NCBI GenBank assembly: GCA_032027005.1
Contig: JAVSMW010000006.1
Location: 111,268 to 137,542 of the forward strand
DNA: 26,275 bases
Origin: Thermincola sp.
GTDB taxonomy: Bacteria; Bacillota; Thermincolia; Thermincolales; UBA2595
Direction of reading: 5' to 3'
A program made the position numbers and the translations under genes. Positions 2,598 through 16,809 of this stretch are shown here, piece by piece. The notes under the pieces were generated by a model. The model did no database searches. It was not told the origin of the DNA and worked only from the letters and a program-made list of their open reading frames with translations. The stretch's first letter is position 1, and each line of letters opens with the position of its first letter.

Positions 2598-4145
2598 ATG
2601 CTTTTCCGGGATTTTCTCGACGAACTTAAGCGCTGCGGTGAATTAACCGAAATAGCGGAAAAGATACATTGGGACCAGGAAGTGGCTGCGGTTACTGCCA
2701 TGTCCCAGCAGAAGGGTGGGGCGGCCCTCCATTTTACTCAAGTGCAGGACGGAAACGGTTCGTCGCTGGTTGGAGCTCTGTTTTCCGGACCGGGTACTTT
2801 ATACGGCAATCCTGGCGGTAGGACCCCTTGGACGAAGATGGCCATCGCGCTCGGTTTTAATCGCGATATTTCCTACGAGGAATTATGCGAGGAGTTACTC
2901 AAACGCCGGGAGCGACCGATGCGCCCTACTGTGGTCTCTTCGGGACCGTGCAAAGAGGTGGTAAAAGTTGACGATGAGGCGAGTCTTGCCGATTTTCCCT
3001 TTCCCAGGCACTACGCCAAGGACGGAGGCCGTTACCTGACGGCGGGCGTACTGGCAGTGAAAGATTATTACGGTCGCTGGGCTAACTGGGGAGTGTATCG
3101 CGCCATGGTGCTTTCGCCACGCGAACTGGTAGTCAACATCAGCCCTGAATCCCAGGCCGGTCGGCTGCTCGCGGAATACGAACAGCACGGCAAGCCGATG
3201 CCCTGCTGCTTCTTTTTAGGAGGTAATCCCGCGGCTTTTGTCGCCGCGGCGGCACCGGTGCCTGAAGGCATCTGGGAGGCGGAAATGGCGGGTGCGTACA
3301 TCCAAAATCCGCTGGAACTGACCAGCGCGGTAACCAACGACCTGCTGATCCCGGCAGATGCCGAAATGGTAATCGAAGGAATGATTATGCCGGGCGAGCG
3401 CCATGCCGAGGGCCCGTTCCCGGAATACGTCAGGTATGCTCCACCCCGGCCCCGGCCAGTGATGCGGATAACTGCAATTACCCACCGCAAAAGTCCGGTG
3501 CTTCCATTCGTAGCCGAAGGTTGCAAGGTGAGTGATTCCATGGCGCTGCGCTCAGTGCTGGCTTCCGTTGAACTGCTGTACAAAGTGCGCACTCAGACCC
3601 AGCTTCGGGTCAGGTGGATCTACCTGCCGGTAGAGAGTCGGCTTTCAATTTGCGTGGTCGGGTGTGATCCTTTCTATCGGGGGCACAACTTCTGGGTAGC
3701 CAATGTACTTAGCCGGTACAAGGAGATGGCCTGGTTTGACAAAATCCTGATGGTGGACAGCGACATTAATCCGTCGGACATGACGGAAGTAGTAAACGAT
3801 TGGGCTCAGAAAACCAGGCCCGAAAAAGGTTATGGCTTCTGGGCGGAAGAATATTCCCACGCTGCTGGGCGCACCGCCGCTTATGCCGGGGAAGGGGAAC
3901 CGACGCGAACGGTTGTCTGGGACTGTTGCTGGGACGATAGCTGGAAAAAAGAACAGATCAGGGCCAGGGTCAGTTTTGAAAGCTCCTTCCCGACGGAACT
4001 CCAGGAGAAGGTGGTCAGTTTCTGGCCCGAGTACGGGCTGCCCGGCAAACCGTTTAAAAAACTTGTAGAGCCTTCCTGGACCCGCGGGCCGCTGCACCCG
4101 CCTGAATTCACAAAAATACCGGGAATAGGAGGTGAAGACCAGTGA
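2598..4145 (+). CDS. UbiD-family (de)carboxylase paralog, B-type
   Basis: AAAGGAGGATAATTATG start; RWANWGVYRAM, AEMVIEG, EGPFPEYVR; C-terminus RARVSFESSFPTELQEK shared with ORF 8211-9707. Confidence 0.9.
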   Translation: MLFRDFLDELKRCGELTEIAEKIHWDQEVAAVTAMSQQKGGAALHFTQVQDGNGSSLVGALFSGPGTLYGNPGGRTPWTKMAIALGFNRDISYEELCEELLKRRERPMRPTVVSSGPCKEVVKVDDEASLADFPFPRHYAKDGGRYLTAGVLAVKDYYGRWANWGVYRAMVLSPRELVVNISPESQAGRLLAEYEQHGKPMPCCFFLGGNPAAFVAAAAPVPEGIWEAEMAGAYIQNPLELTSAVTNDLLIPADAEMVIEGMIMPGERHAEGPFPEYVRYAPPRPRPVMRITAITHRKSPVLPFVAEGCKVSDSMALRSVLASVELLYKVRTQTQLRVRWIYLPVESRLSICVVGCDPFYRGHNFWVANVLSRYKEMAWFDKILMVDSDINPSDMTEVVNDWAQKTRPEKGYGFWAEEYSHAAGRTAAYAGEGEPTRTVVWDCCWDDSWKKEQIRARVSFESSFPTELQEKVVSFWPEYGLPGKPFKKLVEPSWTRGPLHPPEFTKIPGIGGEDQ

Positions 4146-5074
4146 GCGAAAAACATGCTGCCGGATTACGGGAGTTGCAGGCGGTAAATATCAGCATGAG
4201 CTGCGATCTTGCTTGCGAGCGCTGCGAACGGTTTTTTGACTGCGAGGCTCCCCAGAAGCACGATATCTACAAGCGGGGGCGGATGGAAAAAGCCCGCCGG
4301 AATATGGAAAGAGTGCGCTATAAAATAGCTATTGTTGGGGGAAAGGGCGGGGTTGGCAAATCGACCCTGACGGCTAACCTGGCCTGTGCTCTGGCTAACG
4401 ACGGTAACCGGACCAGCGTTCTGGACCAGGATTTCGACGGGCCGACCATTCCGCGCATGCTGGGGGTAACTGATAAAAAAATGATGTTTTCCGAAAAGGG
4501 CATCCAGCCCGTGGAGGGGATATTGGGGATCCAGGTGGTTTCGACAGGCTGTGTTGTCGGCACCGATGAGGTGCTGACCTGGTTTCATGACATGCGGCGG
4601 GGCGCCACTGAGGAATTCCTGGCTCACGTGGATTACGGGGAACGGGATTACCTGCTGATCGACCTGCCGCCAGGGACCAGCTCGGATTCGGTAAACCTTA
4701 TGCAGTATATTCCCGACCTGGCCGGGGCAATTATTATTACCGTTCCCTCTGATGTATCCCAGGTAGTGGCCCGCAAGGCCGCACTGCTCTGCGGGAAAGC
4801 GGGAGTACCGATTCTGGGTGTGGTTGAAAACATGAGCGGGTTTGTTTGTCCTGACTGCGGGCGAGTAGTCAATATTTTCCGTAGCGGAGGAGGAGAAAAA
4901 CTCGCCGAATCTCTGGGTGTTCCTTTCATGGGGAATATTCCCCTTGATGCCAAGCTCAGTGATGCGGCGGACAGTGGCCGACCTTATGTCTTAGATTACC
5001 CGGATAGCCCTGCGTCCAAAGCTTTGCAAGGGATAGCTGCTTACTTGAGGGAGATACTGGAAAAGAAGAATTAA
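4142..5074 (+). CDS. Mrp/NBP35-like P-loop ATPase with N-terminal CX3CX2CX5C motif
   Basis: GGKGGVGKST deviant Walker A, DYLLIDLPPGTSS, CPDC; N-terminus CDLACERCERFFDC; GTG start overlaps the upstream TGA by 4 nt. Confidence 0.92.
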   Translation: MSEKHAAGLRELQAVNISMSCDLACERCERFFDCEAPQKHDIYKRGRMEKARRNMERVRYKIAIVGGKGGVGKSTLTANLACALANDGNRTSVLDQDFDGPTIPRMLGVTDKKMMFSEKGIQPVEGILGIQVVSTGCVVGTDEVLTWFHDMRRGATEEFLAHVDYGERDYLLIDLPPGTSSDSVNLMQYIPDLAGAIIITVPSDVSQVVARKAALLCGKAGVPILGVVENMSGFVCPDCGRVVNIFRSGGGEKLAESLGVPFMGNIPLDAKLSDAADSGRPYVLDYPDSPASKALQGIAAYLREILEKKN

Positions 5075-5082
5075 TTTTTTAT

Positions 5083-5106
5083 GGCCGGTTGAGGTATCGA
5101 CCGGCC
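5083..5106 (+). terminator. Hairpin after the first UbiD/Mrp operon, possible terminator
   Basis: GGCCGGT-(10 nt)-ACCGGCC stem followed by TGCTATTTTG; T tract is short. Confidence 0.5.
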
Positions 5107-5176
5107 TGCTATTTTGTGCGCTCGTTATGGTTGTTAAAAGTTAAAAAAAGAAAATAATCTTGTCTTAAGAGGTTAG

Positions 5177-5397
5177 AACCGTTAAAGCTTAATTTTGTCC
5201 AATTTAACCTATGATTTGTGCAGTTGCCAACTTAATAATTGTCTAAATGCAAAGATGTTATATAATTAAAACACACTTAATCTGGAAATTAACAAAATAA
5301 TAATAGCATTAAATTAGCGTGCGAACTGGGACCTGTTGTGGCGGGGGAGTGAATGGATTCGGCGGTTTGATTGCAAAACAAGTTCGTATACGAACAA
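5177..5397 (+). repeat. Direct repeat copy 1: promoter-bearing region fused to the 3' part of a small-ORF relative
   Basis: 5177-5326 matches 5671-5819 (AACCGTTAAA...TTTGTGCAGTTGCCAAC...GATGTTATATAATTAA...TAGCGTGCGAAC), then TGGGACCTGTTGTGGCGGGGG...GTTCGTATACGAAC matches the region after 5988. Confidence 0.85.
5239..5266 (+). promoter_or_regulatory. Sigma-A-like promoter, copy 1
   Basis: TTGTCT, 16 nt spacer, TATAAT. Confidence 0.5.
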
Positions 5398-5424
5398 AAC
5401 TGGTGAATATTTAATACATATAAA

Positions 5425-5646
5425 GTGATTTCCGGCTATAAAATAAATGAACTCCAGATATGGTCTAATATCAGGGAACGGCAAAAAATGCTCGAAATAT
5501 TACAGGAATGGGAATGCGTAGATAACTTTGAACACTGTATTCGTAGAAAATCCGGAGAAACAATTTGTGAGATACTTGCGGTGTGGCTTATGACAATGAC
5601 AAGTATCACAGTTTCAGAGTGTTTTAGGAAGAAAAAAAGGGGGTAG
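5425..5646 (+). pseudogene. Remnant of a PAS domain protein
   Basis: NELQIWSNIRERQKMLEILQEWECVDNFEHCIRRKSGETICEILA resembles the C-terminal half of PAS domains (..LW.NPEDRQ..LE.L...G.V.NFE...RRKDG....); no full domain or obvious RBS. Confidence 0.45.
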
Positions 5647-5670
5647 ATGAAAATGAAAATAAATACTATT

Positions 5671-6064
5671 AACCGTTAAATCTCAATTTTGTTCAATTTA
5701 ACCTAAGATTTGTGCAGTTGCCAACAAAATAATTGCCTAGAAATAACGATGTTATATAATTAAACCATACATAAATCTGGAAACTGAAAAAAATAATAGT
5801 ATTTAACTAGCGTGCGAACAATTTGTGAACAGGAGGTGAAATTGATGTTTAAAAAACAAAATACTACAATACCTAAAATGGGAGAAAAACTAGCAAAAAT
5901 TACCGAAGCAATTGCCGAAAAGGAAAACTCAAGAATCGAAGAAAAAACTTACCGTAGAAATTGTTATGAGGTTTTTCCATTTCTGACTGGAACCTGTTGT
6001 GGCGGGGGAGGGGATGGATTCGGCGGTTTGTTTGATTACAAAACTAGTTCGTATACAAACAAAA
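5671..6064 (+). repeat. Direct repeat copy 2: promoter region plus intact small ORF
   Basis: Contains the same promoter-like block as 5177-5326 plus 168 bp (5820-5987) absent from copy 1. Confidence 0.82.
5733..5760 (+). promoter_or_regulatory. Sigma-A-like promoter, copy 2
   Basis: TTGCCT, 16 nt spacer, TATAAT; both boxes present in both repeat copies. Confidence 0.55.
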
Positions 6065-6069
6065 ACTAG
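5845..6069 (+). CDS. Small Cys/Gly-rich peptide (74 aa)
   Basis: AGGAGGTGAAATTG-ATG start; MFKKQNTTIPKMGEK...RRNCYEVFPFLTGTCCGGGGDGFGGLFDYKTSSYTNKN. Confidence 0.6.
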   Translation: MFKKQNTTIPKMGEKLAKITEAIAEKENSRIEEKTYRRNCYEVFPFLTGTCCGGGGDGFGGLFDYKTSSYTNKN

Positions 6070-6082
6070 TTCGTATACAAAC
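6040..6082 (+). repeat. Tandem repeat, two 21-nt units AAAACTAGTTCGTATACAAAC at 22 bp period
   Basis: Identical units at 6040-6060 and 6062-6082; each holds the near-palindrome GTTCGTATACAAAC. Confidence 0.85.
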
Positions 6083-6277
6083 AAAAAAAGTTCTCGCACA
6101 ATCAAAAATTATTCGCATCCGAAGCTAGGATAAGTTTTCGGGACCAGGGTGGCGAAAATGTGTGGGAAATTTAAATAAAAATAATATTTGCCAATTTAAG
6201 AAGGGGGTGAAGCTTATGTTGTGAAGAACTTCAGTGGAGCCCGAATAAAACACATTAATAGGAGGTGCACAACTTTA

Positions 6278-7822
6278 ATGGCAGTAAAAAGAATTGATGA
6301 TCTGAGAGATTACCTTGATGTTCTGGATCAAATGGGTGAAATATGTCATGTTAAGGATGAAGTTGACTGGAAACTGGAAATGACGGGAATTGGAGCTATG
6401 TCCAACCGTATCGACGACAAAATCCCACTCTTTGAAAACATTAAAGGCTACCCCAAAGGTACCAGGGCGTCAACTGACCTCTACCGTGGCAGCCACGGAG
6501 CTTTGTGGCGGCGGATGGCCTTGTCCATCGGCTTATCCCCGGAAATTTCCTATTCAGATTACATGGATGAATACATTAACCGTTTCAATCACCCGATCCG
6601 CCCCATTGCCGTGGATAAGGGTTCATGCCAGGACGTTGTACTGATCGGGAAAGATGTCGATGTTTTAAAAACACTTCCGGTTCCGTATATCCACGACGGT
6701 GACGGCGGTCGTTACCTGACCATGCACGCGATGATTGTCAAGGATCCTGATTCGGAATGGGTCAACTGGGCCAATTACCGTGCACTAGTTAATACCAAGA
6801 ATAAGATCAGCTTTCTCTTCTGCCCTGGCCAGCAAAACCCCAACCTTTACTATTATAAGTATGAAGCTAGGAACCAGCCCATGCCGGTTGCCATAGCCAT
6901 TGGCGGGCACCCTGCGGTTTGGTATATGGCCACAACTCCATTGCCAGCAGGGGTCAGTGAGGTCGATTATATCGGCGGCATGATCCAAAAACCGGTTGAG
7001 TTGGTCAAGTGCGTGACGAATGATCTTTATGTGCCAGCAAATGCGGAGTATGTGATTGAGGGCGTTATGATGCCCCACGAACGCATTGATGAAGGTCCGT
7101 TCGGTGAGTATCTTGGTTACATGCACGGCCCGCGCCGTCCGATGCCTTTTGTTCGGGCTACGGCCATTACCCACCGGAAAAACCCGATCCTGCCGATCTG
7201 CGTTGAGGGAACCGGGGTAGGGGAGTCGAATAACGTCTGCAATACCAGTTTCAACGCTCTGTTAACCCCAGCGCTAATGGTTTTCCTGCGGCAGCTAGGT
7301 TATCCGGTCAAGTTTGTAACTGGTCCCGAACTTAACGCGTGGTCATCCCTGATTGCGGCTACCAAAATTCCTTATCCCGGGTATGCCAAAGAATTAGGCG
7401 AACTGCTACTGACCTGTCCCGGACCTTCCATGTACTATGACCTTACTTTCCTAGTGGATGAAGATATTGACATTACCGATATGGAAAAAGTTTGGGAAGA
7501 AATTGTTTTAAAAGCCCATCCAACAAAGGATTGGAATAACTTCGGCGACGCTGAAGCGCCAAGGTCGTCGCTGAATATCTACCAGACAGCCGAAGAAAAA
7601 GGAGCCCTAGCTAAGGCGTCCTCCAAGGGAAAAACGTCAAAATGCTGGATTGACGCCACAACCAAGGAATGGAACGAAACTACGGACGGACCGAAACGCA
7701 TGGAGTTCGATCTTTTATATCCGACCACTAAGGATTGGGTGACCAGCAACAAAGAAAAATACGACCTGCCAAAATATAAGGATTTCCGTGAGGAAGGTTT
7801 ACGCTGGATTGAACAAAAATAA
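6278..7822 (+). CDS. UbiD-family (de)carboxylase, A-type
   Basis: AGGAGGTG RBS before ATG 6278 (57 nt inside the listed ORF); EWVNWANYRAL, GVSEVDYIGG, AEYVIEG, EGPFGEYLG. Confidence 0.92.
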   Translation: MAVKRIDDLRDYLDVLDQMGEICHVKDEVDWKLEMTGIGAMSNRIDDKIPLFENIKGYPKGTRASTDLYRGSHGALWRRMALSIGLSPEISYSDYMDEYINRFNHPIRPIAVDKGSCQDVVLIGKDVDVLKTLPVPYIHDGDGGRYLTMHAMIVKDPDSEWVNWANYRALVNTKNKISFLFCPGQQNPNLYYYKYEARNQPMPVAIAIGGHPAVWYMATTPLPAGVSEVDYIGGMIQKPVELVKCVTNDLYVPANAEYVIEGVMMPHERIDEGPFGEYLGYMHGPRRPMPFVRATAITHRKNPILPICVEGTGVGESNNVCNTSFNALLTPALMVFLRQLGYPVKFVTGPELNAWSSLIAATKIPYPGYAKELGELLLTCPGPSMYYDLTFLVDEDIDITDMEKVWEEIVLKAHPTKDWNNFGDAEAPRSSLNIYQTAEEKGALAKASSKGKTSKCWIDATTKEWNETTDGPKRMEFDLLYPTTKDWVTSNKEKYDLPKYKDFREEGLRWIEQK

Positions 7823-7888
7823 GGTCGGGTTATAATATCCAGACCTTAAAAACCAAAACATCAAAATATAGGAGGTGCATAGTTAGAT

Positions 7889-8185
7889 ATGGCCAAGTAT
7901 GAGATGTGGGTTAAAGAGCTAAAAAGATTCAGGAATGAAATTCAGGATGGGACACCGGTAAAAGTGGATGTTCGAGACGAGAGCCTGAACTGGCATGCAG
8001 TGATAGCCATTATTTCGGAAACCCCGATCAAGGATGGAGTAGAAACAGTGATAGTTGGGGAAGGTGGACCGGTTTCCTATGTCAACAAGCCGGTATACCT
8101 TAAAATTGTCGAAGAACTGGACGAAGACGACCAATATGTTATCAAAGATATGGACAGATACAACAAAAGACTGGGTGATGTCTAA
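7889..8185 (+). CDS. Small protein (98 aa) between two UbiD genes, candidate carboxylase accessory subunit
   Basis: AGGAGGTG RBS, position between the A and B UbiD paralogs; function inferred from context only. Confidence 0.7.
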   Translation: MAKYEMWVKELKRFRNEIQDGTPVKVDVRDESLNWHAVIAIISETPIKDGVETVIVGEGGPVSYVNKPVYLKIVEELDEDDQYVIKDMDRYNKRLGDV

Positions 8186-8210
8186 TAATAAGCAGGAGGT
8201 GTAGTCATAA

Positions 8211-9707
8211 ATGAAGTTCAGAAACTTCCTTGAAGTCTTAACTGAGGAAAATGAGGTAAATGAGGTCAGTGAAAAAGTCAGCCCTGTCTTACAGGCGGGG
8301 GCGTTGGGGGCAAAAAATGTGGAACTGGATGGTCCGGCGATGCATTTTAAGAACTTAGAAGGTTATCCCAACGCGTCACTGGTCACTGGGCTTTACGCTT
8401 CGCCCAGCGATTTGTATCCCAAGCGACGTAAGGCGTGGATCAGAACGAATGTTGCTCTGGAGCGTGAGTTGGAGGGGACGTATGAAGAGCTCCAGGAACA
8501 TATTTATGACGGTCTGGAGCAGGGCGGACTCAAACCCCTTGAAGTAAGCTCCGGACCATGTAAGGAAAATGTCAAACTGGACGATCAGGTGGATCTGAAT
8601 GAGTTTCCATTTCCGTTAATCCATGAACAGGACGGAGGTAAGTATAGCACCCAGCATGTGATTATCGTAGAGGATCCAGAAAACGGGGTAATTTCTTGGA
8701 GCGACGAAAGGTTTATGATCAAGGATCGCAACCTACTCGTCGTTAACCTCGATCCGGAAGGAAGACTTTATGAAATTTATCAAAAGTACGTTAAACTCAA
8801 CAAGCCGATGCCCTTTGCCGTGGCCATCGGTGTAGACTCCAGCATCCCTTTAGCGACAGCCGTGTTCATGGAAAGAGTGGGGCTGGGCGGACTGAAACGT
8901 GAAGTTCCTGCCGCGGACCTTGCCGGATATTTGGGTGGCGAACCGATTGAACTGGTAAAAACCCAAACCAATGGTCTGCTTGTTCCGGCCAGCAGCGAAA
9001 TAATCCTAGAGGGTGTTGCTATACCGGGGGAAACTGCCTTAGAAGGGCCATATCCGAATTTCTACCGCATCGAGAAAGCAACATGGCAACCAATATTCAC
9101 CGTCAAGGCAATTTCCCACCGCACAAATCCTATTATACCATTTGACGTTACCGGTATCAAGGGTAGTGATTCTATGAGTCTCCGCTCTTGGGCCCACTCG
9201 TTTAAAATCTATCGGATTTTGAACAGCTGGTGGTGGGGGACCAAAATTGCCCGTTGGGTCTATTGCCCTGTTTCTATGCGTATGGGGATGGGTATAGTCG
9301 CCGTGAACGCCCTCTACCCAGGGTTTGAGTTCCACTTCTCCCGTATTGTTTTCGCTTACAGCCACTGGTTTGACAAACTAATGCTGGTTGATAACGCCCT
9401 CGGCGCCGAAGAGTTGGCTAGGGTTATGCAGGACTTTATCCAAAAGGCTTCGCCGGTGCATGCCTTCCATTTCTCTAAGGACGATGTGGCGGCAATTACG
9501 CGTTCTGCCAAATATCCGAACGACGGTGAGCGCACAGGGCGCTTGTATATCAATGCTTGTCTTGATCCCACTTGGCCCAAGGAGATGATCCCAACACGGG
9601 TCAGCTTTGAGACGACATGGCCTGTGGCGTTGCAAGAAAAAATAATAACCAATTGGAGCAAGATGGGGTTTGTTAATAAACCGCAAAAACGATTAATTAA
9701 CGCATAA
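8211..9707 (+). CDS. UbiD-family paralog, B-type with diverged active site
   Basis: FRNFLEVL, SSGPCKENVKLDDQVDLNEFPFP, GGEPIELVK, SEIILEG; motif reads EGPYPN rather than EGPFGE. Confidence 0.88.
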   Translation: MKFRNFLEVLTEENEVNEVSEKVSPVLQAGALGAKNVELDGPAMHFKNLEGYPNASLVTGLYASPSDLYPKRRKAWIRTNVALERELEGTYEELQEHIYDGLEQGGLKPLEVSSGPCKENVKLDDQVDLNEFPFPLIHEQDGGKYSTQHVIIVEDPENGVISWSDERFMIKDRNLLVVNLDPEGRLYEIYQKYVKLNKPMPFAVAIGVDSSIPLATAVFMERVGLGGLKREVPAADLAGYLGGEPIELVKTQTNGLLVPASSEIILEGVAIPGETALEGPYPNFYRIEKATWQPIFTVKAISHRTNPIIPFDVTGIKGSDSMSLRSWAHSFKIYRILNSWWWGTKIARWVYCPVSMRMGMGIVAVNALYPGFEFHFSRIVFAYSHWFDKLMLVDNALGAEELARVMQDFIQKASPVHAFHFSKDDVAAITRSAKYPNDGERTGRLYINACLDPTWPKEMIPTRVSFETTWPVALQEKIITNWSKMGFVNKPQKRLINA

Positions 9708-9726
9708 GTTGCTTATTCAGGAATTT

Positions 9727-9759: not shown

Positions 9760-9800
9760 CCCATCAAATTAAATTATTTGGTAATGGAAGGAGCCGGAAT

Positions 9801-10730
9801 ATGAGCGAGGAGAGAAACGAGGAGAGAACTGTCCTCAAGATCAATGTGGATTTAAACTGCGATCACAAGTGTGAACGGTGCGAAAAGTTTTTTGAATGTG
9901 ATGACGATATTAAATGGAAGATTTATGGTCGACGCAGAATGGCTCGCGCAGCCCGAACCATGAAGAAAATCAAGTATAAGATCGCCATCGGGGGCGGGAA
10001 AGGCGGAGTCGGCAAATCAACCACAACGGCTAACTTGGCTGTGGCTCTGGCGCAAATGGGTTACAAAGTCAGCGTATTGGATCAGGATTTTGACGGTTCA
10101 ACGATTCCCAAGTTATTTGGGGTGATGGATAAAAGGATGAAACTGGGAGAAAAAGGCTTGAAACCAGTGGAGGGGTTACTGGGTATTCAGATGGTTTCTT
10201 TGGGCTTAATCCAAAAAGAATCCGAAGTGGTAACGATGTTTCATGATATGCGGAGGGGAACTACCGAAGAGTTTTTAGCCCATGTGGATTATGGCGAAAT
10301 TGATTTTTTACTGGTTGACCTGCCCCCGGGTACCAGCTCTGACGCGGTAAACCTAATGCAGTATATACCTGATTTAAACGGTCTGATTGTCATTACTATT
10401 CCGCCTTATGTGTCCCAACTGGCGGCGAGAAAAGCGGCGCAGATTGCCATGAAGGCGGAAACTCCTGTTCTTGGAATAATTGAAAATATGAGCGGGTATA
10501 TCTGCCATAAATGCGGGAAGGAATTTGACGTGTTACAGCGCGGCGGTGGTGAAAGGCTGGCGGAGGAGCTTGGGGTGAATTTCCTTGGAAGAGTACCTCT
10601 GAATAAGGAGTTAAGCGAGGCATCCGACGCTGGGGAACCGTTTGTTTACAAATATCCGGAAAACCCTGGCACAAAGGGAATGCAAGATATAGCTAAGCGC
10701 TTAGTTAAATTGCTTGAAGAAGGTGTCTAA
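9801..10730 (+). CDS. Mrp/NBP35-like P-loop ATPase with N-terminal CX3CX2CX5C motif
   Basis: CDHKCERCEKFFEC, GGKGGVGKST, DFLLVDLPPGTSS, CHKC. Confidence 0.92.
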   Translation: MSEERNEERTVLKINVDLNCDHKCERCEKFFECDDDIKWKIYGRRRMARAARTMKKIKYKIAIGGGKGGVGKSTTTANLAVALAQMGYKVSVLDQDFDGSTIPKLFGVMDKRMKLGEKGLKPVEGLLGIQMVSLGLIQKESEVVTMFHDMRRGTTEEFLAHVDYGEIDFLLVDLPPGTSSDAVNLMQYIPDLNGLIVITIPPYVSQLAARKAAQIAMKAETPVLGIIENMSGYICHKCGKEFDVLQRGGGERLAEELGVNFLGRVPLNKELSEASDAGEPFVYKYPENPGTKGMQDIAKRLVKLLEEGV

Positions 10731-10773
10731 AATAAAACAGGTGGGTGAAATTTAATCTGAAAGGGGAACCGTT

Positions 10774-11697
10774 ATGAGCGATTCAAGCATTAAAGAAGAA
10801 ATTGATCTGATTGGGATTAATGTGGATACCTCATGTTCTTACGACTGCGCCAACTGTGAGAGGTATTTTGAATGCAAGTGGCCGCAGAAGGAAGATTTTT
10901 TGAAACATGGTTTCTATCCCTTGGCCAAGGAAAACCTGAAAAATGTTAAAAGGAAAATTTTGGTTTTGGGTGGCAAAGGGGGCGTCGGCAAGTCCATGCT
11001 GGCAACCAACTTGGCGGCTGCTCTGGCTAAACTCGGCAAAAAAGTGTGTGTTCTGGACCAAAATTACGACTGTCCCGCTGTACCGATTATGCTTGGAGTT
11101 GAGGGCAAAAAGCTGAAGACTGGGGAAAACGGTTTTATCCCGGTTGTAGGAGCAGGCGGGGTCAAAGTGGTTTCGATGGGCCTGATTTTGTCTCAGGATG
11201 AAATAATTATCTGGTTCCATGATTCGAAAAGGGCAGCAACTGAGGAGTTCCTTACCAATGTGGACTTTGGAGAGTTGGATTATCTTATTTTTGATATTCC
11301 AGCGGGTACCAGCAGCGAAACTGTCAATGTCATGAAGTTAATACCGGACATGGACGGCAGTATTGTAATCACGGTTCCCAGTGAGGTATCTCAAAACGTG
11401 GCGAAAAGAGCCATATTAGTCAGCCAGCAGGCTGGTGTACCTGTCTTGGGGGTCATTGAAAATATGGGTTCGTTTACCTGTCCGGACTGCGGAGAGGTCG
11501 TAGGGATTCTGCAAAGCGGCGGTGGGCAAAAGCTGGCGAGCGATATGGGCATGGAGTATTGGGGCTCAATTCCGATGGACTTGGAAGTAAGCAGTTCTCT
11601 AGATCATGGCAACCCCTTCGTCTTGAACGATGAAAATTTTGTGGGTTCGCAAGTGGTTATGACCGCGGCGCAAAAGTTGATTAAAAAATATGATTAA
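10774..11697 (+). CDS. Mrp/NBP35-like P-loop ATPase, variant
   Basis: CSYDCANCERYFEC, GGKGGVGKSM, DYLIFDIPAGTSS, CPDC; VLDQNYDCPAVP replaces VLDQDFDGPTIP. Confidence 0.9.
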   Translation: MSDSSIKEEIDLIGINVDTSCSYDCANCERYFECKWPQKEDFLKHGFYPLAKENLKNVKRKILVLGGKGGVGKSMLATNLAAALAKLGKKVCVLDQNYDCPAVPIMLGVEGKKLKTGENGFIPVVGAGGVKVVSMGLILSQDEIIIWFHDSKRAATEEFLTNVDFGELDYLIFDIPAGTSSETVNVMKLIPDMDGSIVITVPSEVSQNVAKRAILVSQQAGVPVLGVIENMGSFTCPDCGEVVGILQSGGGQKLASDMGMEYWGSIPMDLEVSSSLDHGNPFVLNDENFVGSQVVMTAAQKLIKKYD

Positions 11698-11772
11698 TAA
11701 TGATGCCCAAATGATTGACATGCGAATCTAATCCATACTATGCGTAATGTTTGCAGAGGAGGTGAAACATGC

Positions 11773-12141
11773 ATGGCTAAGGTTTATCAAACAATAATAT
11801 CATTAGCAGAAAAGGAACTCAAGCCGTGGTGGAAAAAAGATTCCGGCTTAGTAGGGCTGAGCGAAGGGGACCTCGCTGAACCGAAACAGCTAAATCTGCA
11901 GCTAACTGATGAAGAAACAATGGAAAATTTCGATGCTGTAGCGTTAGTATGTAATAATCGGGAGAAACTCTCTGATAGCGATACATTGCAGGTTGTTGAT
12001 TTTGAAACATCAACATGTATAAAAGAACTGTTTATCAAAATCATTGAAAAAATAGAGGAGCCCGAAGTACAATTAAATTTTAATACTAAAAAACAGCGTC
12101 TCAGCCAAAAAGGAGATATTCTTAAGTCTCTTCTCAAATGA
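11773..12141 (+). CDS. Hypothetical protein (122 aa)
   Basis: GAGGAGGTGAAAC RBS upstream of ATG 11773; no recognised family. Confidence 0.6.
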   Translation: MAKVYQTIISLAEKELKPWWKKDSGLVGLSEGDLAEPKQLNLQLTDEETMENFDAVALVCNNREKLSDSDTLQVVDFETSTCIKELFIKIIEKIEEPEVQLNFNTKKQRLSQKGDILKSLLK

Positions 12142-12185
12142 CGTCCAAAAATAAAAATTAGAAATGTTAGACGAGGAGGGTAAAT

Positions 12186-12389: not shown

Positions 12390-12420
12390 CTTACCAGCTT
12401 GATAAAAGGGGGCGATCGGC

Positions 12421-12858
12421 ATGGAAATTGAGAGTTTAGTCGTAGAGGGACACTTAGTTTCCGGATTGGGAGAGGGGACTTACATGACCAAACTGGAGTG
12501 GGTAGAGTTGCAGTGCCAGAAAAAATTCGGTTTTCATCCTCAACCGGGAACATTTAATATCCAGCTCGATAAGAAAGAGAGCGAGCGCTACTCAATAGTA
12601 AAAAAATATCGGGGGATAAAAATCCTTCCGCCTTCCGATATCTTTGCTGCGGCAAAATGTTTTCCGGTTCAAGTAGGAAAAGTTAAAGGTATCGTAGCGA
12701 TTCCCCTGCTGGATGATTACCCCCCAAACATTCTGGAAATCATTGCGCCCATACGGATGAGGGATGCGCTGGGTGTCCGGGAAGGCGACCTGATCCAGGT
12801 AAAGATTGAATTGGGATCTTTTGTTAAACGAGGTGATGACCAATCGGAGTTGAAGTAA
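12421..12858 (+). CDS. CTP-dependent riboflavin kinase-like protein (DUF120/archaeal RibK family)
   Basis: GHLVSGLGEGTYMTKL, FGFHPQPGTFNIQL, YRGIKILP, PNILEIIAPIRMRDALGVREGDLIQVKI match the RibK family pattern as I know it. Confidence 0.75.
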   Translation: MEIESLVVEGHLVSGLGEGTYMTKLEWVELQCQKKFGFHPQPGTFNIQLDKKESERYSIVKKYRGIKILPPSDIFAAAKCFPVQVGKVKGIVAIPLLDDYPPNILEIIAPIRMRDALGVREGDLIQVKIELGSFVKRGDDQSELK

Positions 12859-13607
12859 TAAGCTTTGATGTTCACGGTACCCTTGTCGAAAAAGGTGGCG
12901 TAAAGGCTTTCAGGGCGGCAGTCAAATCGGTGGTATCTTTTTTGAATTCCCGGGATGTTCATTTGACTGAAGAAGATTATTTTTCGATCTGGAAAAACAA
13001 TTTGAAATGCTGGTCAAGCTATTTGCATGAAAACAAAGAAGTTGACTTTTACCGGTGGTATGAGGGCATATTGTACCGGGTCGGAATAGCTTACGACAAA
13101 AGTTTGATTGATTTATTCAATAATTATTGGATGGAGGGTTTCAAAAACTTTACTAAGCCGATTCAAGGTGCGGGAAAACTTCTTTCGGAACTCAAACGGC
13201 AGGGGTACAAATTAGGGGTTGTTTCCAACGGTTTAGCCCGAAATAATGTTTTGGATCTACAGCGGACCGGGCTGGAAAGTTATTTCAGTTCTATCGTCAT
13301 CTCCTCAGACGTGGGTTACAGAAAACCTGAGTCGGCACCTTTTTTAAAAGCACTGGCTGAATTGGAAACAAACCCTCAGAATGCGGTTATGGTCGGCGAC
13401 AGTATGAAAGAAGATATTTGTGGCGCTAAAAAAGTTGGCATGAGAACAGTCTGGGTAAGAGGATGCGATGGGTTGAGAACCGTTACCGATAAGGTATTGG
13501 ATTCGGATGCAGCCGTGCAGCCCGACGAGACTGATGTGGCTGATGTGGTCGTAGATCAGCTAGAGGAATTGTATTTGCTTCTTTCAGCAGGGCGCTGGCC
13601 AAGCTAA
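12855..13607 (+). CDS. HAD-superfamily hydrolase, start codon unresolved
   Basis: Reading upstream of the listed start (12930) gives VISFDVHGTLVEKGG (motif I). Later: VVSNG (II), GYRKPESAPF (III), VMVGDSMKEDICGAKKVGM (IV). No ATG/GTG/TTG in frame before motif I. Confidence 0.7.
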   Translation, partial: VISFDVHGTLVEKGGVKAFRAAVKSVVSFLNSRDVHLTEEDYFSIWKNNLKCWSSYLHENKEVDFYRWYEGILYRVGIAYDKSLIDLFNNYWMEGFKNFTKPIQGAGKLLSELKRQGYKLGVVSNGLARNNVLDLQRTGLESYFSSIVISSDVGYRKPESAPFLKALAELETNPQNAVMVGDSMKEDICGAKKVGMRTVWVRGCDGLRTVTDKVLDSDAAVQPDETDVADVVVDQLEELYLLLSAGRWPS

Positions 13608-13669
13608 GACCGCTCAAAGTCATGGCTGGTCTATAAAATTGTTATGGAATAAAGATAGGAGGGTTACTA

Positions 13670-14065
13670 ATGGAAAATTTTGTTGCTGATAAGTTAAGGG
13701 AAGGGTTAGAAATATTTCACAGCTTTCTTGATGCCAACCAGGATAAGATTAAAAATGGAGAGCCTTTTATGATGCTTGTCCTAGATCTGGACAACATTTG
13801 TGACAAAGTAGTGAAAGGAATTGTGGCCCAGAATAGCGAGGAAGAGGGCTGGATTGACCTATGGATTAAGGATCAAAATGATAAAATCAGGCATGATGTC
13901 TGGAAAATCAAGGTTCTTGAAGAATTTGACGAGGATGAGGTTGATGTTAGGAGACCTGAAGCGGATGCAACAATCGTGGCCGGGATGTTCGGGAGCACTA
14001 TGACCACGGAGCACATGGAGCAAGATGCGGTGAAATATAAAAAAGAGTTCGGGCGCAAGAAATAA
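13670..14065 (+). CDS. Hypothetical protein (131 aa)
   Basis: GGAGG RBS, in the operon run; no recognised family. Confidence 0.6.
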   Translation: MENFVADKLREGLEIFHSFLDANQDKIKNGEPFMMLVLDLDNICDKVVKGIVAQNSEEEGWIDLWIKDQNDKIRHDVWKIKVLEEFDEDEVDVRRPEADATIVAGMFGSTMTTEHMEQDAVKYKKEFGRKK

Positions 14066-14101
14066 ACGGATAAACGCATTCGATCGAGGAGGGAAATTGT
14101 A

Positions 14102-15151
14102 GTGGCGATTATTAAAAAAAAGAAAAGTGTAAACCAGGAAGAGGGTAGAAGGGAAATCAAAAGCGTAGTTTCGCAGGACATGAAATGCGATTTTATCTGC
14201 GAGTACTGTGAACGTTTCTTTGATTGCGACCGTCCGGAAAAGGCAAAAATTTACGAGCGGAGGAGGATGGTGAGCGCGCGGAAAGCCCTGGCCAATATTA
14301 AACACAAGATCCTGGTGGCCGGTGGCAAGGGAGGCGTAGGCAAATCGACCTGTTCCGCCAATTTGGCGGCGGGACTAGCCATGATGGGGTTACAGACTAC
14401 CGTCCTTGACCAGGATCTTGACGGCTCATCTATTCCCAAAATGCTTGGCGTGATGGAAAAACGGATGCAGATTGGCGAAGACGGGCTAATTCCGGTGGAA
14501 GGACCTCTCGGGATCCAGGTAGTGGCCATGGCCAATCTTAAAGAAGCAGGAGATGCGGTGGTCTGGTTCCATGAAATGCGGCGCAATGCCAGTGAGGAGT
14601 TTATCTGCCATACCGATTACGGCACCCGGGATATCCTGGTTGTCGATTTGCCGCCAGGGACCAGTTCGGATAATGTTTCAGTAGTTCAGCTTATCCCGGA
14701 GGCCTCCGGTTATGTCGTGGTGACGGCCGCCAGCAAAGTTTCTCAGGCCACGGCGCGCAAGGCAGTTATTTTCGGTAAAAAGGCCGGGATGAGGATCTTG
14801 GGTGTGATTGAAAACATGAGTGGTTATATCTGCGAACACTGTGGGATGGAGGATGACCTGTTGCCATTGGGCGGAGGATATGATCTGGCTAAAGAGGAAG
14901 ATGTGCCTTTTCTGGGCAAAATCCCGCTGGACCCGGGTCTGGCCCGTTCGTGCGATGAAGGACGCCCTTTAGTCGAGGCCTTACAGGGTAGCCCCCTGGC
15001 TAAAATTATTCAGCAAATTTTACTCAAAATATTGGCCCAGCTTAACAGCGATAAGCAATTCGGCTTTGCCGACAGCGACAAACTCATTGAAATTGGCGGT
15101 GACATAGATACAATTCTGGAAAGAATAAAAAGGAAGGGGGAAACGAACTGA
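14102..15151 (+). CDS. Mrp/NBP35-like P-loop ATPase with N-terminal CX3CX2CX5C motif and C-terminal extension
   Basis: CDFICEYCERFFDC, GGKGGVGKST, DILVVDLPPGTSS, CEHC; GTG start behind GAGGAGGG. Confidence 0.9.
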   Translation: MAIIKKKKSVNQEEGRREIKSVVSQDMKCDFICEYCERFFDCDRPEKAKIYERRRMVSARKALANIKHKILVAGGKGGVGKSTCSANLAAGLAMMGLQTTVLDQDLDGSSIPKMLGVMEKRMQIGEDGLIPVEGPLGIQVVAMANLKEAGDAVVWFHEMRRNASEEFICHTDYGTRDILVVDLPPGTSSDNVSVVQLIPEASGYVVVTAASKVSQATARKAVIFGKKAGMRILGVIENMSGYICEHCGMEDDLLPLGGGYDLAKEEDVPFLGKIPLDPGLARSCDEGRPLVEALQGSPLAKIIQQILLKILAQLNSDKQFGFADSDKLIEIGGDIDTILERIKRKGETN

Positions 15152-16158
15152 TGGCAATAATTAAAAAGAAAACTAATAATATTAAGAAAATTACTTCATT
15201 CAATGTTAATCTTTCATGTGTTATTGATGAAGAAAGTGGCCGTATCGCCTGCGAGAAGTGCGAAAAGTTTTTTGACTGCAAGGAACAAAGCAAGTGGGAC
15301 GTTTATAAACATGGGCGGCTAGCGCTGGCCCAGCGGAAAATGTCGTCAATTAAACATAAAATTGCCATTGTTGGCGGCAAGGGTGGCGTGGGCAAGACCA
15401 TGCTGGCCGTCAACATTGCCGCCGGACTGGCCAAGCGCGGGAAACGGGTGGCGGTCCTTGATTCCGATTATGACGGGTCCAGCGTCCCGAGGATGCTGGG
15501 GGTGGCTGATAAAAAGCTTTATATGGGTGCACAGGGTATTGAACCGGTGGAAGCTTTGCTGGGTATCAAGGTGGTTTCCATGGGGAACCTGAGGAATGAT
15601 AACGATATTGTTACGTGGTATTCCGATAGCCGACGGGGAGCCACAGAAGAGTTTATTACTCATGTCAACTATGGTGAGCTTGATTACTTGATTGTTGATT
15701 TGCCGCCGGGCACCAGCGCCGACACGGTGAACAGCATGCTGTTTATCCCGGATATGACCGGTATTGTCTTCATTACTGTTCCTTCCGAGGTTTCTCAGGG
15801 GGTAGCCTTACGGGCTGCTACGATCTGCGGCAAGGGCGGCGTCAAAGGAATCGGGATTGTTGAGAATATGAGCGGTCATGTCTGCCGGCACTGCGATCAT
15901 CGTTCCGAGATATATTCTACAGGGGGCGGAGAAAAACTCGCCGAAGCTACGGGAATACCACTGATCGGCAAGTTGCCGGTTGAAGGTTATGCCGGTATGG
16001 CCTGTGATGAAGGTGTACCGTTTGTGGTCGCCTACCCGGAAAGCGCATCCGCCAAAATTATGGAAAAAGTTGTTGATAAAATAGAAGAAGAAGTTCTTAC
16101 CAGTAGACGCGATTTGAGCCACCTTAACACGGATTACGGAAAACGCTCCTGGTGGTAA
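15151..16158 (+). CDS. Mrp/NBP35-like P-loop ATPase with N-terminal CX10CX2CX5C motif
   Basis: CVIDEESGRIACEKCEKFFDC, GGKGGVGKTM, DYLIVDLPPGTSA, CRHC; TGATG overlap with the previous gene. Confidence 0.9.
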   Translation: MAIIKKKTNNIKKITSFNVNLSCVIDEESGRIACEKCEKFFDCKEQSKWDVYKHGRLALAQRKMSSIKHKIAIVGGKGGVGKTMLAVNIAAGLAKRGKRVAVLDSDYDGSSVPRMLGVADKKLYMGAQGIEPVEALLGIKVVSMGNLRNDNDIVTWYSDSRRGATEEFITHVNYGELDYLIVDLPPGTSADTVNSMLFIPDMTGIVFITVPSEVSQGVALRAATICGKGGVKGIGIVENMSGHVCRHCDHRSEIYSTGGGEKLAEATGIPLIGKLPVEGYAGMACDEGVPFVVAYPESASAKIMEKVVDKIEEEVLTSRRDLSHLNTDYGKRSWW

Positions 16159-16787: not shown

Positions 16788-16809
16788 ATATTGATAGAAA
16801 GGAAAGGTG

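What the first reader, a model, noticed from the sequence alone, without database searches (positions are those of the whole stretch)
4142..16158. Five Mrp/NBP35-like ATPases in one carboxylase locus with an N-terminal CX3CX2CX5C motif
ORFs at 4142, 9801, 10774, 14102 and 15151 all carry GGKGGVGK[ST], a D-[LI]-P-[PA]-GTS motif and a C-terminal CX2C as in Fe-S carriers of the Mrp/NBP35 family. All also have an N-terminal Cys block followed by a basic stretch. One housekeeping Mrp is usual; five at a locus is not. The block resembles a compressed version of the eukaryotic NBP35 N-terminal ferredoxin-like motif (CX13CX2CX5C). Possible roles are Fe-S loading, ATP-driven reduction of prFMN or substrate, or a structural subunit. 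ParA/MinD-like ATPases have, to my recollection, been reported near naphthalene carboxylase genes, so the association may be partly known.
Basis: partly seen in the sequence, partly recalled or inferred. Interest (0 to 1): 0.75.

Follow-up and report, generated by a model that had tools for sequence, protein, structure and literature searches.

The report
Fe-S-type ATPases tied to arene carboxylases
Five related ATPase genes in the benzene-carboxylase locus of an anaerobic bacterium belong to a small, previously undefined branch of the Mrp/NBP35 iron-sulfur ATPase family; that branch sits almost only next to UbiD-type carboxylase genes and is the best candidate for the unexplained ATP requirement of anaerobic benzene and naphthalene activation.

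Summary
All five ORFs are Mrp/NBP35 P-loop ATPases (PF10609, 230-260 bits). Each has an intact deviant Walker A, a D-[LI]-P-[PA]-G-T-S motif, a C-terminal CX2C and an N-terminal four-Cys block. The block is CX3CX2CX5C in four ORFs and CX10CX2CX5C in ORF 15151.

The window is the benzene-carboxylase locus (abcD-abcA-bzlA-ubiX plus further UbiD genes) of a Thermincola MAG.

The link between such ATPases and naphthalene/phenanthrene carboxylase genes is already published for N47, NaphS2 and TRIP_1. I found no description of the following points:
- The N-terminal block C-D-x-[KR]-C-E-x-C-E-[KR]-F-F-[DE]-C is invariant across the clade and matches no Pfam model.
- The clade splits into two orthogroups in fixed A-then-B gene order, with one natural A-B fusion.
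- The clade is nearly always UbiD-linked: 30 of 33 metagenomic loci with at least 3 kb of flank on one side, against 0 of 56 generic Mrp/MinD loci.

No other protein in the locus has an Fe-S motif, so a plain cluster-carrier role lacks a local client.

My best reading (confidence about 0.5) is stoichiometric ATPase subunits, probably A/B dimers with bound metal centres, that couple ATP to arene carboxylation. Homology of the block to the Nbp35 N-terminus is not demonstrable.

The parts
4142..5074 (+). Type-A N-Cys Mrp/NBP35 ATPase, without a B partner. Cys block at 4202-4243, Walker A at 4340-4363, DLPPGTS at 4661-4681, CX2C at 4847-4858. Its start overlaps the stop of UbiD 2598-4145 by 4 nt.
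   Evidence: PF10609 at 260 bits. Falls in orthogroup A. Motif coordinates.
9801..10730 (+). Type-A N-Cys Mrp/NBP35 ATPase, first gene of a tandem pair. Cys block at 9858-9899, Walker A at 9996-10019, CX2C at 10503-10514.
   Evidence: AF2 model has mean pLDDT 85.5. Nearest solved folds are AF2382, ApbC and Cfd1.
10774..11697 (+). Type-B N-Cys Mrp/NBP35 ATPase, second gene of the pair. Cys block CSYDCANCERYFEC at 10834-10875. Switch-I reads LDQNYDC (second Asp replaced by Asn). DIPAGTS instead of DLPPGTS. CX2C at 11479-11490.
14102..15151 (+). Type-A N-Cys Mrp/NBP35 ATPase, first gene of the second tandem pair. Cys block at 14186-14227, CX2C at 14831-14842, with a C-terminal extension of about 40 aa.
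15151..16158 (+). Type-B variant, second gene of the pair, overlapping the previous gene by 1 nt. Cys block CX10CX2CX5C at 15217-15279. Retains LDSDYDG. CX2C at 15883-15894.
   Evidence: The same long-spacer variant occurs in L070, L132, P0172 and P0187.
26..937 (+). UbiD-family gene whose 5' part lies beyond the window edge; the frame is open to base 2.
   Evidence: PF01977 match starts at profile position 57. Frame check.
1089..4145 (+). Two UbiD-family genes of module 1 (1089-2540 and 2598-4145).
6221..9707 (+). Module 2: UbiD (6221-7822), a small protein (7889-8185) and UbiD (8211-9707). This is the conserved UbiD-small-UbiD unit.
   Evidence: The same cassette occurs in L059, L140-L144.
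11740..12141 (+). Small protein of 133 aa with no Pfam hit, in the position of the ~140-aa 'linker' ORF of the cassette.
12421..13607 (+). CTP-dependent riboflavin kinase-like gene (12421-12858) and HAD-IA hydrolase (12930-13607), probably for flavin/prFMN precursor supply.
   Evidence: PF01982 at 101 bits and HAD_2. NCBIfam. RibK-like hits also lie next to UbiD genes in L001, L069 and L094.
13670..14065 (+). Small protein of 131 aa with no Pfam hit, immediately upstream of the second Mrp pair.
   Evidence: A homologue sits next to an Mrp gene in L002.
16407..20681 (+). abcD-like small subunit (16407-16787, weak Phenyl_P_gamma hit), AbcA-like UbiD (16807-18345), benzoate-CoA ligase (18407-20032) and UbiX (20088-20681).
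   Evidence: Published abcD-abcA-bzlA-ubiX synteny in PMC13101534 and PMC5852087.

Best explanation
The five ORFs are paralogues of a distinct clade of Mrp/NBP35 P-loop ATPases dedicated to multi-subunit UbiD-type (prFMN) carboxylases of non-activated aromatic hydrocarbons. Here that is the putative benzene carboxylase of Thermincola, which is present as three modules.

The clade has two orthogroups. Type A comprises 4142, 9801 and 14102. Type B comprises 10774 and 15151. They are encoded in fixed order A then B.

The working unit is most likely a nucleotide-dependent A/B dimer, or an A2 dimer where no B gene is present. I expect it to hold one bridging cluster on the two CX2C motifs and one further metal centre, probably [4Fe-4S], on each N-terminal four-Cys block.

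The genes are encoded one-to-one with the UbiD and small subunits and are often translationally coupled to them. I therefore read the proteins as stoichiometric ATPase subunits. They would couple ATP binding and hydrolysis to the energetically uphill early step of carboxylation, meaning arene-prFMN adduct formation or closure of the UbiD domains. That would account for the ATP requirement reported for naphthalene carboxylation.

Shown: family membership, motif invariance, the orthogroups and the gene linkage. Inferred: dimerisation, metal content and ATP coupling.
For: (1) Family membership. PF10609 at 230-260 bits. Nearest solved structures are AF2382, ApbC and Cfd1.

(2) Conservation. Walker A, the Switch-I Asp residues, the Walker B Asp, CX2C and all four N-terminal Cys are invariant in 75 A-type and 37 B-type sequences.

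(3) Orthogroups. At the 0.5 distance cut, all 31 'first' genes of tandem pairs cluster as A and all 31 'second' genes as B, with no exception. P0168 is a natural A-B fusion of 638 aa.

(4) Linkage to UbiD. A motif-based metagenome scan gave 80 loci. A UbiD gene lies within 1 kb in 10 of 11 loci with at least 1.5 kb of flank on both sides (11 of 11 anywhere in the locus), and in 30 of 33 with at least 3 kb on one side. The figure is 0 of 56 for generic Mrp/MinD loci. The cassette MrpA-MrpB-UbiD-small-UbiD-small recurs in Syntrophales, Desulforudis and other MAGs.

(5) Co-duplication. The closest Mrp pair (4142 and 9801, 58% identity) mirrors the closest UbiD pairs (1089/6221 and 2598/8211). Gene overlaps of 4 nt and 1 nt are present.

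(6) No local Fe-S client. No other protein in the locus has a clustered-Cys motif.

(7) Literature. The homologues are counted as subunits of a ~750 kDa naphthalene carboxylase complex. In TRIP_1 they were detected in the transcriptome and, for three of the four listed, in the proteome. Net carboxylation needs ATP, whereas the carboxyl-exchange half-reaction does not.
Against: No biochemistry exists for any member of the clade.

The review states that the ATP dependence may instead come from coupling to the CoA ligase.

A purely conformational ATPase would not need eight invariant cysteines per dimer. The only characterised function of this family is Fe-S cluster scaffolding and transfer, including a carrier dedicated to its own operon, MrpORP.

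19 of 46 A-type genes have no B gene downstream, so the A/B dimer is not universal.

The N-terminal block has only moderate model confidence (pLDDT about 70-79) and no detectable homology to the Nbp35 cluster domain.

The original paper on complex composition (Koelschbach 2019) could not be read here.
Confidence: 0.5

Rival explanations
1. They are dedicated Fe-S cluster carriers or scaffolds, the canonical Mrp/ApbC/Nbp35/Ind1 role. They would assemble [4Fe-4S] on the CX2C bridge and hand it to a client protein of the aromatic-degradation pathway.
For: The family signatures, deviant Walker A plus CXXC, are exactly those of proven carriers. MrpORP is a precedent for an Mrp dedicated to the Fe-S proteins of its own operon (PMC6345978). 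Some related loci carry Fe-S proteins just downstream: an Sdh-like flavoprotein, Fer2_3 and Fer4 in L140/L141, with similar genes listed for N47. In L142 benzoyl-CoA-reductase-like genes lie upstream.
Against: No protein in this window's locus has an Fe-S motif. UbiD enzymes are prFMN/Mn/K proteins (established knowledge; PMC10176493). The Fe-S neighbours are not conserved across loci, whereas the UbiD neighbours are. Five copies that co-duplicated with UbiD modules are hard to explain for a catalytic-amount maturation factor. Both NCBIfam carrier equivalogs score far below their cut-offs.
Confidence: 0.2
2. They are cofactor-maturation ATPases for prFMN. This could mean an O2-independent route to oxidise UbiD-bound prFMNH2 to the active iminium form, or re-activation of off-pathway redox states, using the Fe-S centres as electron conduit. 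It could also mean an insertase or chaperone, as with other SIMIBI metallochaperones.
For: prFMN needs oxidative maturation, which uses O2 in the systems studied so far (PMC10176493), and these organisms are strict anaerobes. The locus also carries UbiX, a riboflavin-kinase-like gene and a HAD phosphatase, i.e. cofactor-supply genes. The Ni-inserting Mrp-type HypB and the nitrogenase Fe protein are structural neighbours. Sdh-like flavoprotein and ferredoxin genes in some loci could serve as the electron outlet.
Against: To my knowledge (not tested here), other UbiD enzymes of anaerobes, such as phenylphosphate carboxylase and phthaloyl-CoA decarboxylase, have no such partner. One maturase should serve all modules, yet each module has its own copy. 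The window contains no electron-acceptor gene.
Confidence: 0.2
3. The N-terminal four-Cys block is a structural zinc knuckle that merely docks the ATPase onto the UbiD core. The proteins would then be assembly or positioning ATPases (MinD/ParA-like) with no Fe-S chemistry.
For: The N-terminal profile weakly matches repeated C-X10-C-X2-C-x-K-Y-F-D modules of large, presumably secreted proteins (P0181, P0186, P0192). A few members give marginal zinc-finger Pfam hits, zf-CHY at E 0.012. The block has no regular secondary structure in the AF2 model.
Against: The CX2C bridge motif of proven cluster-binding relatives is invariant. The CX2CX5C spacing and the position relative to Walker A match the Nbp35 [4Fe-4S] site. 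The zinc-finger hits are not significant.
Confidence: 0.1

Closest known systems
ParA/MinD-like 'MRP, Fer4_NifH superfamily' proteins of naphthalene/phenanthrene carboxylase clusters (N47_K27520/K27510, NPH_5857/5858, TRIP_1 PITCH_v1_a1350002 and others)
   Same: Same clade by all evidence here. ORF 9801 is 62% identical to the homologue in an 'uncultured Desulfobacterium sp.' genome (P0074), which has the same Mrp-Mrp-UbiD-small-UbiD-small cassette and the same Cys block. The published tables list two adjacent copies next to UbiD genes.
   Different: This locus has five copies spread over three modules. One A-type copy has no B partner. One B-type copy has a long-spacer CX10 block. The host is a Gram-positive Thermincola with a benzene carboxylase rather than a naphthalene carboxylase. 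The N47 and NaphS2 sequences themselves were not retrieved.
Eukaryotic Nbp35/NUBP1 (CIA scaffold, partner of Cfd1)
   Same: Same Mrp/NBP35 core, with hhalign probability 100% and 34% identity over residues 46-309. Shares the C-terminal CX2C and an extra N-terminal four-Cys site ending in CX2CX5C, placed 31-33 residues before the Walker A glycine. Both work with a paralogous partner.
   Different: The first spacer is 3 or 10 residues, not 13. There is no detectable sequence similarity across the block. Both partners carry the block here, whereas Cfd1 lacks it. The genomic context is UbiD carboxylases rather than a general Fe-S assembly pathway.
Bacterial MrpORP (Desulfovibrio Orp9) and ApbC/Mrp
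   Same: These are the best NCBIfam matches over the P-loop domain. MrpORP is likewise dedicated to the protein complex of its own operon and has non-canonical N-terminal cysteines.
   Different: Scores are 225-252 bits against a 450 cut-off for MrpORP and 157-193 against 348 for ApbC. The window proteins have no Di-Nase domain and no DUF59 domain. The Cys pattern differs (CX3CX20CXC or CXCX5CX4C in MrpORP). The neighbours are not Fe-S proteins.
Nitrogenase Fe protein family (NifH, BchL/ChlL, CfbC): ATP-driven Fe-S dimers docking on a catalytic partner
   Same: What it may work like: a SIMIBI dimer with a deviant Walker A, a subunit-bridging [4Fe-4S] and ATP-gated interaction with a large catalytic complex. 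These are structural neighbours at TM 0.55-0.60.
   Different: The window proteins are not members of this family. The Fer4_NifH hits cover only the P-loop, the cluster ligands sit at a different position, and the carboxylation has no net redox change.
Phenylphosphate carboxylase (PpcABCD)
   Same: The partner enzyme is built the same way. It has UbiD-like large subunits nearest to phenyl_P_alpha (431 bits for the AbcA-like ORF) and a small Phenyl_P_gamma-like subunit.
   Different: To my knowledge (not tested here), the Ppc enzyme draws its driving force from the phosphorylated substrate and has a HAD-type subunit but no Mrp ATPase. The arene carboxylase loci carry the N-Cys Mrp genes instead.

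Membership tests
Mrp/NBP35 ATP-binding proteins (PF10609) | Deviant Walker A GKGGhGK[ST] | tested here: met
   GKGGVGK[ST] is present in all five ORFs and in 112 of 112 clade members. The signature definition comes from PMC6345978.
Mrp/NBP35 ATP-binding proteins (PF10609) | Conserved C-terminal CXXC motif | tested here: met
   CPDC, CHKC, CPDC, CEHC and CRHC in the five ORFs. Invariant across the clade.
Mrp/NBP35 ATP-binding proteins (PF10609) | Profile score above the Pfam gathering threshold and the Mrp fold | tested here: met
   230-260 bits against 27.1. Foldseek top hits are AF2382, ApbC and Cfd1 at E 1e-23 to 1e-20.
Mrp/NBP35 ATP-binding proteins (PF10609) | Dimer-bridging [4Fe-4S] cluster and ATPase activity | not testable with these tools
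   Requires anaerobic purification, spectroscopy and an ATPase assay.
Nbp35 subclass (N-terminal stable [4Fe-4S]) | N-terminal CX13CX2CX5C motif homologous to the Nbp35 extension | tested here: not met
   The spacing is CX3 or CX10, then CX2CX5C. hhalign against NUBP1 begins only at residue 46/43, and the N-terminal profile against yeast Nbp35 gives no match. Only the last two spacings and the position agree.
Nbp35 subclass (N-terminal stable [4Fe-4S]) | Hetero-complex with a Cfd1-type partner that lacks the N-terminal block | tested here: not met
   Both orthogroups A and B carry the four-Cys block.
ApbC (NF008669 equivalog) | Score above the curated cut-off | tested here: not met
   157-193 bits against a cut-off of 348.
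MrpORP (NF041136 equivalog) | Score above the curated cut-off and a C-terminal Di-Nase domain | tested here: not met
   225-252 bits against 450. Only profile positions 1-258 of 365 are matched, so there is no Di-Nase domain.
Arene-carboxylase-associated 'ParA/MinD-like' subunits (N47/NaphS2/TRIP_1 type) | Mrp-type genes immediately adjacent to UbiD-like carboxylase genes and small subunit genes in one cluster | tested here: met
   Window gene map. Cassette comparison. Published cluster tables.
Arene-carboxylase-associated 'ParA/MinD-like' subunits (N47/NaphS2/TRIP_1 type) | Physical presence in the carboxylase complex | not testable with these tools
   Known only as cited second-hand. The primary paper is not held.
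NifH/BchL-type ATP-dependent reductases | Full-length Fer4_NifH profile match with the NifH-type cluster ligands | tested here: not met
   Fer4_NifH hits cover only about 30-40 residues around the P-loop, at 21-33 bits. The NCBIfam nifH, bchL and cfbC models score 20-34 bits against cut-offs above 340.

The most novel reading that the evidence does not exclude
Anaerobic carboxylation of unactivated arenes (benzene, naphthalene, phenanthrene) is carried out by a new enzyme architecture. In it, an Nbp35-like Fe-S ATPase dimer is an obligatory working subunit of a prFMN/UbiD carboxylase. It would act like a nitrogenase-Fe-protein-style ATP-gated module. Either it drives the dearomatising substrate-prFMN step, or it sets the prFMN redox state without O2. 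That would be the first catalytic, non-carrier role for the Mrp/NBP35 family.
Probability: 0.3. Interest if true: 0.85.

Novelty: new variant of a known kind. Interest (0 to 1): 0.55.

Why it matters
How strict anaerobes activate benzene and PAHs is a long-standing open problem. Benzene carboxylase has never been demonstrated in vitro, and the origin of the ATP requirement of naphthalene carboxylation is unresolved.

This work offers three practical things:
- It defines the N-Cys Mrp clade, its A/B pairing and its near-exclusive linkage to UbiD genes. That gives a concrete candidate for the ATP-using component.
- It suggests a co-expression recipe (UbiD alpha/beta, small subunits, Mrp A/B, UbiX) for reconstitution attempts that have so far focused on AbcA/AbcD.
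- It provides a sharper genomic marker for arene-carboxylating organisms than UbiD homology alone.

It would also extend the Mrp/NBP35 family beyond Fe-S trafficking.

Tried and rejected
- The search for related loci on genome contigs picked the generic Walker A peptide as its pattern. It returned mostly unrelated MinD/ParA/Mrp loci, with only L001 and L002 as true members. I reused the other 56 loci as a negative control.
- Searching the word-indexed protein database with the 59-aa N-terminal profile found only 3 fragments. This was uninformative.
- The exhaustive representative search with the N-terminal profile gave only 29 hits. That library is clustered at 50% identity, so the number cannot size the family. 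It does show that the block occurs in no other strong domain context.
- Homology of the Cys block to the Nbp35 N-terminus was tested and not found.
- Pfam scan of 41 N-terminal segments found no family.
- Rfam scan of the window found nothing.
- BLASTP among the small ORFs (5812, 7889, 11740, 13670, 16407) found no significant pairwise similarity.
- The window's HAD hydrolase is not the phenylphosphate carboxylase HAD-type subunit; it is a generic HAD-IA.
- The primary papers Koelschbach 2019 and Heker 2023 are not in the library, so statements about complex composition and ATP dependence are second-hand.
- AF2 coordinates are not exposed, so Cys-Cys geometry could not be measured to separate Zn from a [4Fe-4S] site.
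- Heterodimer modelling was not possible.

Full report
**What is in the window.** All relevant genes are on the + strand. There are six UbiD-family genes: 26-937 (cut by the window edge), 1089-2540, 2598-4145, 6221-7822, 8211-9707 and 16807-18345. They are interleaved with five Mrp/NBP35-type genes (4142, 9801, 10774, 14102, 15151) and four small ORFs without strong family hits (7889, 11740, 13670, and 16407, which is weakly Phenyl_P_gamma-like). The locus also holds a CTP-dependent-riboflavin-kinase-like gene, a HAD hydrolase, a benzoate-CoA ligase and UbiX. Exact look-up assigns the proteins to a Thermincola sp. MAG (MDT36997xx). At least 90%-identical relatives occur in 2010-era UniParc entries. 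The segment 16407-20681 is the published abcD-abcA-bzlA-ubiX putative benzene-carboxylase cluster of Thermincolales and culture BF.

**Observation check.** Each of the five ORFs scores 230-260 bits on PF10609 against a cut-off of 27.1. The match starts at residue 56-67, so the N-terminal 55-65 residues are not covered. The five-way alignment shows as invariant the deviant Walker A GGKGGVGK (then S or T), D-[LI]-P-[PA]-G-T-S, the C-terminal CX2C and four N-terminal cysteines. The spacing is CX3CX2CX5C in four ORFs and CX10CX2CX5C in ORF 15151. A back-translated pattern for C-E-x-C-E-[KR]-F-F-[DE]-C hits four times in the window and never in 100 shuffles.

**The block defines a clade.** Of the 120 best database homologues of ORF 9801, 118 carry C-D-x-[KR]-C-E-x-C-E-[KR]-F-F-[DE]-C. 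The other two are truncated fragments. The block matches no Pfam family. No solved structure covers it. In an exhaustive profile search of 1.84 billion representatives, all strong hits lie at the N-terminus of Mrp-type proteins or fragments of them. The only other matches are three large proteins with unrelated Cys-rich repeats, which hit weakly. One hit, P0168, is a natural fusion of two complete N-Cys Mrp units.

**Two orthogroups.** I extracted 111 full-length genes from related loci and clustered them together with the five window ORFs. All 31 upstream members of tandem pairs fall in one group (A). All 31 downstream members fall in other groups (B). There were no exceptions.
- Type A has a conserved R-R-R-M stretch, D-Q-D-F-D-G and D-L-P-P-G-T-S.
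- Type B has K-G-I-L instead of the basic stretch, D-Q-[V/N]-Y-D-[C/G] and D-I-P-A-G-T-S.
- Both types keep every N-terminal Cys, the Walker A, the Walker B Asp and CX2C.

In the window, 4142, 9801 and 14102 are type A, and 10774 and 15151 are type B. In most B-type proteins, including ORF 10774, the second Asp of the Switch-I D-x-D is replaced. In MinD-type ATPases the equivalent Asp is needed for hydrolysis (my recollection of MinD D40, not tested here). An asymmetric A/B dimer with one fully competent site is therefore plausible. Of 46 A-type genes with enough downstream sequence, 27 are followed by a B gene and 19 are not. A-only units such as ORF 4142 are thus a regular variant.

**Genomic linkage.** A DNA-pattern scan of public metagenomes for the Cys block returned 80 loci, which I annotated by tblastn with the window proteins.
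- A UbiD gene is present in 11 of 11 loci with at least 1.5 kb of flank on both sides, and within 1 kb in 10 of them.
- A UbiD gene is present in 30 of 33 loci with at least 3 kb of flank on one side.
- The loci without a UbiD hit are short or have sequence on one side only.
- None of 56 generic Mrp/MinD/ParA loci, averaging about 15 kb, has a UbiD gene.

Precomputed annotations show the same cassette, MrpA-MrpB-UbiD-small-UbiD-small, in Syntrophales, Desulforudis-related and other MAGs. The clade is therefore not broadly present without UbiD. It is a UbiD-dedicated branch. Within the window, the closest Mrp pair (4142 and 9801, 58% identity) mirrors the closest UbiD pairs (1089/6221 and 2598/8211). 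This indicates duplication of whole modules.

**What is already known.** The adjacency of 'MRP, Fer4_NifH superfamily' or 'ParA/MinD ATPase-like' genes to UbiD-like genes is tabulated for N47, NaphS2 and TRIP_1. The TRIP_1 table gives transcript values for all four listed homologues and proteome values for three (PMC6849830). [quoted passage not shown] An 'MRP homologue' was noted as co-transcribed with abcAD, although it was read as a multidrug-resistance protein (PMC5852087). I found no paper that mentions the Cys motif or links UbiD with Nbp35. The 2025 review does not discuss these proteins mechanistically.

**Relation to Nbp35.** I verified human NUBP1 and yeast Nbp35 as exact database sequences. 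Profile comparison aligns the clade to NUBP1 with 100% probability, but only from residue 46/43 onward. The N-terminal profile finds nothing in Nbp35. What agrees is the CX2CX5C tail of the motif and its position: the last Cys lies 33 residues before the Walker A glycine here and 31 in NUBP1. The literature states that a stable N-terminal [4Fe-4S] is a peculiarity of Nbp35 and is absent from other characterised members. The block here is therefore either a very divergent or an independent counterpart. The AF2 model (mean pLDDT 85.5) is confident for the core. It gives only 70-79 for the block, with no regular secondary structure, as expected for a metal-dependent loop. Nearest folds, in order, are AF2382/ApbC/Cfd1, then the Ni-inserting Mrp-type HypB, then MinD/FleN, then NifH.

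**Mechanism.** Four observations favour an integral ATPase subunit over a classical Fe-S carrier:
- No other protein of the locus has a clustered-Cys motif.
- Each carboxylase module has its own Mrp copy or copies, and these co-duplicated with it.
- Genes overlap or are closely spaced.
- The homologues are reported as complex components.

The review reports that net naphthalene carboxylation needs ATP, whereas carboxyl exchange from naphthoate does not. This places the ATP-dependent event early, but the review leaves open whether the ATP is used by the carboxylase or by the CoA ligase. These ATPases are the only ATP-binding proteins in the conserved cassette apart from the ligase.

My model is an A/B (or A2) dimer that closes on ATP, like other SIMIBI dimers, and transmits this to the UbiD core. 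The invariant cysteines argue that metal centres are essential, but their role is not resolved. They could be structural, could sense redox state, or could transfer electrons to manage the prFMN redox state. Carrier, prFMN-maturase and zinc-docking alternatives remain viable and are scored as rivals.

**Verdict.** The finding is real. It is partly already known: the association is published, and the window proteins are new members of that set. It is also partly new: the definition of the clade, its invariant N-terminal block, the A/B orthogroups, the natural fusion and the quantified UbiD linkage. No function is demonstrated. Its value lies in making the ATP question of anaerobic arene carboxylation directly testable.

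Noticed in passing
window 5177-5399 and 5671-6107: The AT-rich gap between module 1 and module 2 contains a duplicated segment of about 220 bp (86-92% identity). Each copy has a promoter-like TTGnCn-N16-TATAAT and a conserved 49-nt element. That element encodes ...TCCGGG(G/V)xGFGGL, which is also the C-terminus of the small ORF 5812-6069. Each copy also has the palindrome GTTCGTATAC(G/A)AAC, present once in copy 1 and twice in copy 2, which could be an operator for one of the MarR regulators. A terminator-like hairpin lies at 5083-5106 after ORF 4142. No Rfam family matches.
   Followed up: partly
window 12421-13607: An archaeal-type CTP-dependent riboflavin-kinase-like gene (PF01982) and a HAD-IA hydrolase sit in the middle of the carboxylase locus. 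RibK-like hits also lie next to UbiD genes in L001, L069 and L094. This suggests a dedicated FMN/prFMN precursor supply.
   Followed up: partly
window 1-5074 versus 6221-21816: Module 1 (UbiD 1089, UbiD 2598, Mrp 4142) has GC 54-57% and GC3 about 0.60-0.62. The rest of the locus has GC 38-51% and GC3 0.32-0.57. This hints at a different origin or age for module 1.
   Followed up: no
window 1089-9707 and 16807-18345: UbiD paralogues come in two kinds. ORFs 1089, 6221 and 16807 keep E-G-P-F-G-E-Y. By my recollection of Fdc1 E277/E282, this is the catalytic Glu pair; I did not test it. ORF 2598 has E-G-P-F-P-E-Y, and ORF 8211 has E-G-P-Y-P-N-F, having lost the second Glu. This looks like alpha/beta-type pairs with one possibly non-catalytic subunit.
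   Followed up: partly
P0168 (638 aa, metagenomic protein): This is a natural head-to-tail fusion of two complete N-Cys Mrp units. Each half has its own four-Cys block, Walker A and CX2C.
   Followed up: partly
L140 15721-17978 and L141 10563-12820: In some related loci the cassette is followed by a succinate-dehydrogenase/fumarate-reductase-like flavoprotein, a Fer2_3 protein and a small 2x[4Fe-4S] ferredoxin. Similar genes are listed for the N47 cluster. They could be a redox partner, but they are absent from this window.
   Followed up: no
L142 1230-5437: In a Syntrophales MAG the Mrp-UbiD cassette is directly preceded by benzoyl-CoA-reductase/2-hydroxyacyl-CoA-dehydratase-type genes (two HGD-D and two BcrAD_BadFG) and a sigma-54 activator.
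   Followed up: no
window 14102-14122 and 15151-15171: The adjacent A-type and B-type genes both begin with the same peptide, MAIIKKK, although they are only 43% identical overall. This may reflect local gene conversion or a shared 5' signal.
   Followed up: no
window 20785-26196: Downstream of UbiX lie a HAD-MarR fusion protein (20785-21816), a DDE transposase (22172-23626), a second MarR (24047-24643) and a PAS-SpoIIE phosphatase (24994-26196). This region has the lowest GC in the window (34-41%).
   Followed up: no
P0181, P0186, P0192 (large metagenomic proteins): The N-terminal Cys-block profile weakly hits 5-7 tandem repeats of C-X10-C-X2-C-x-K-Y-F-D in large proteins. P0181, the only one whose sequence I read, starts with a signal-peptide-like N-terminus. 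The repeats resemble the long-spacer variant of ORF 15151 and are probably convergent.
   Followed up: no
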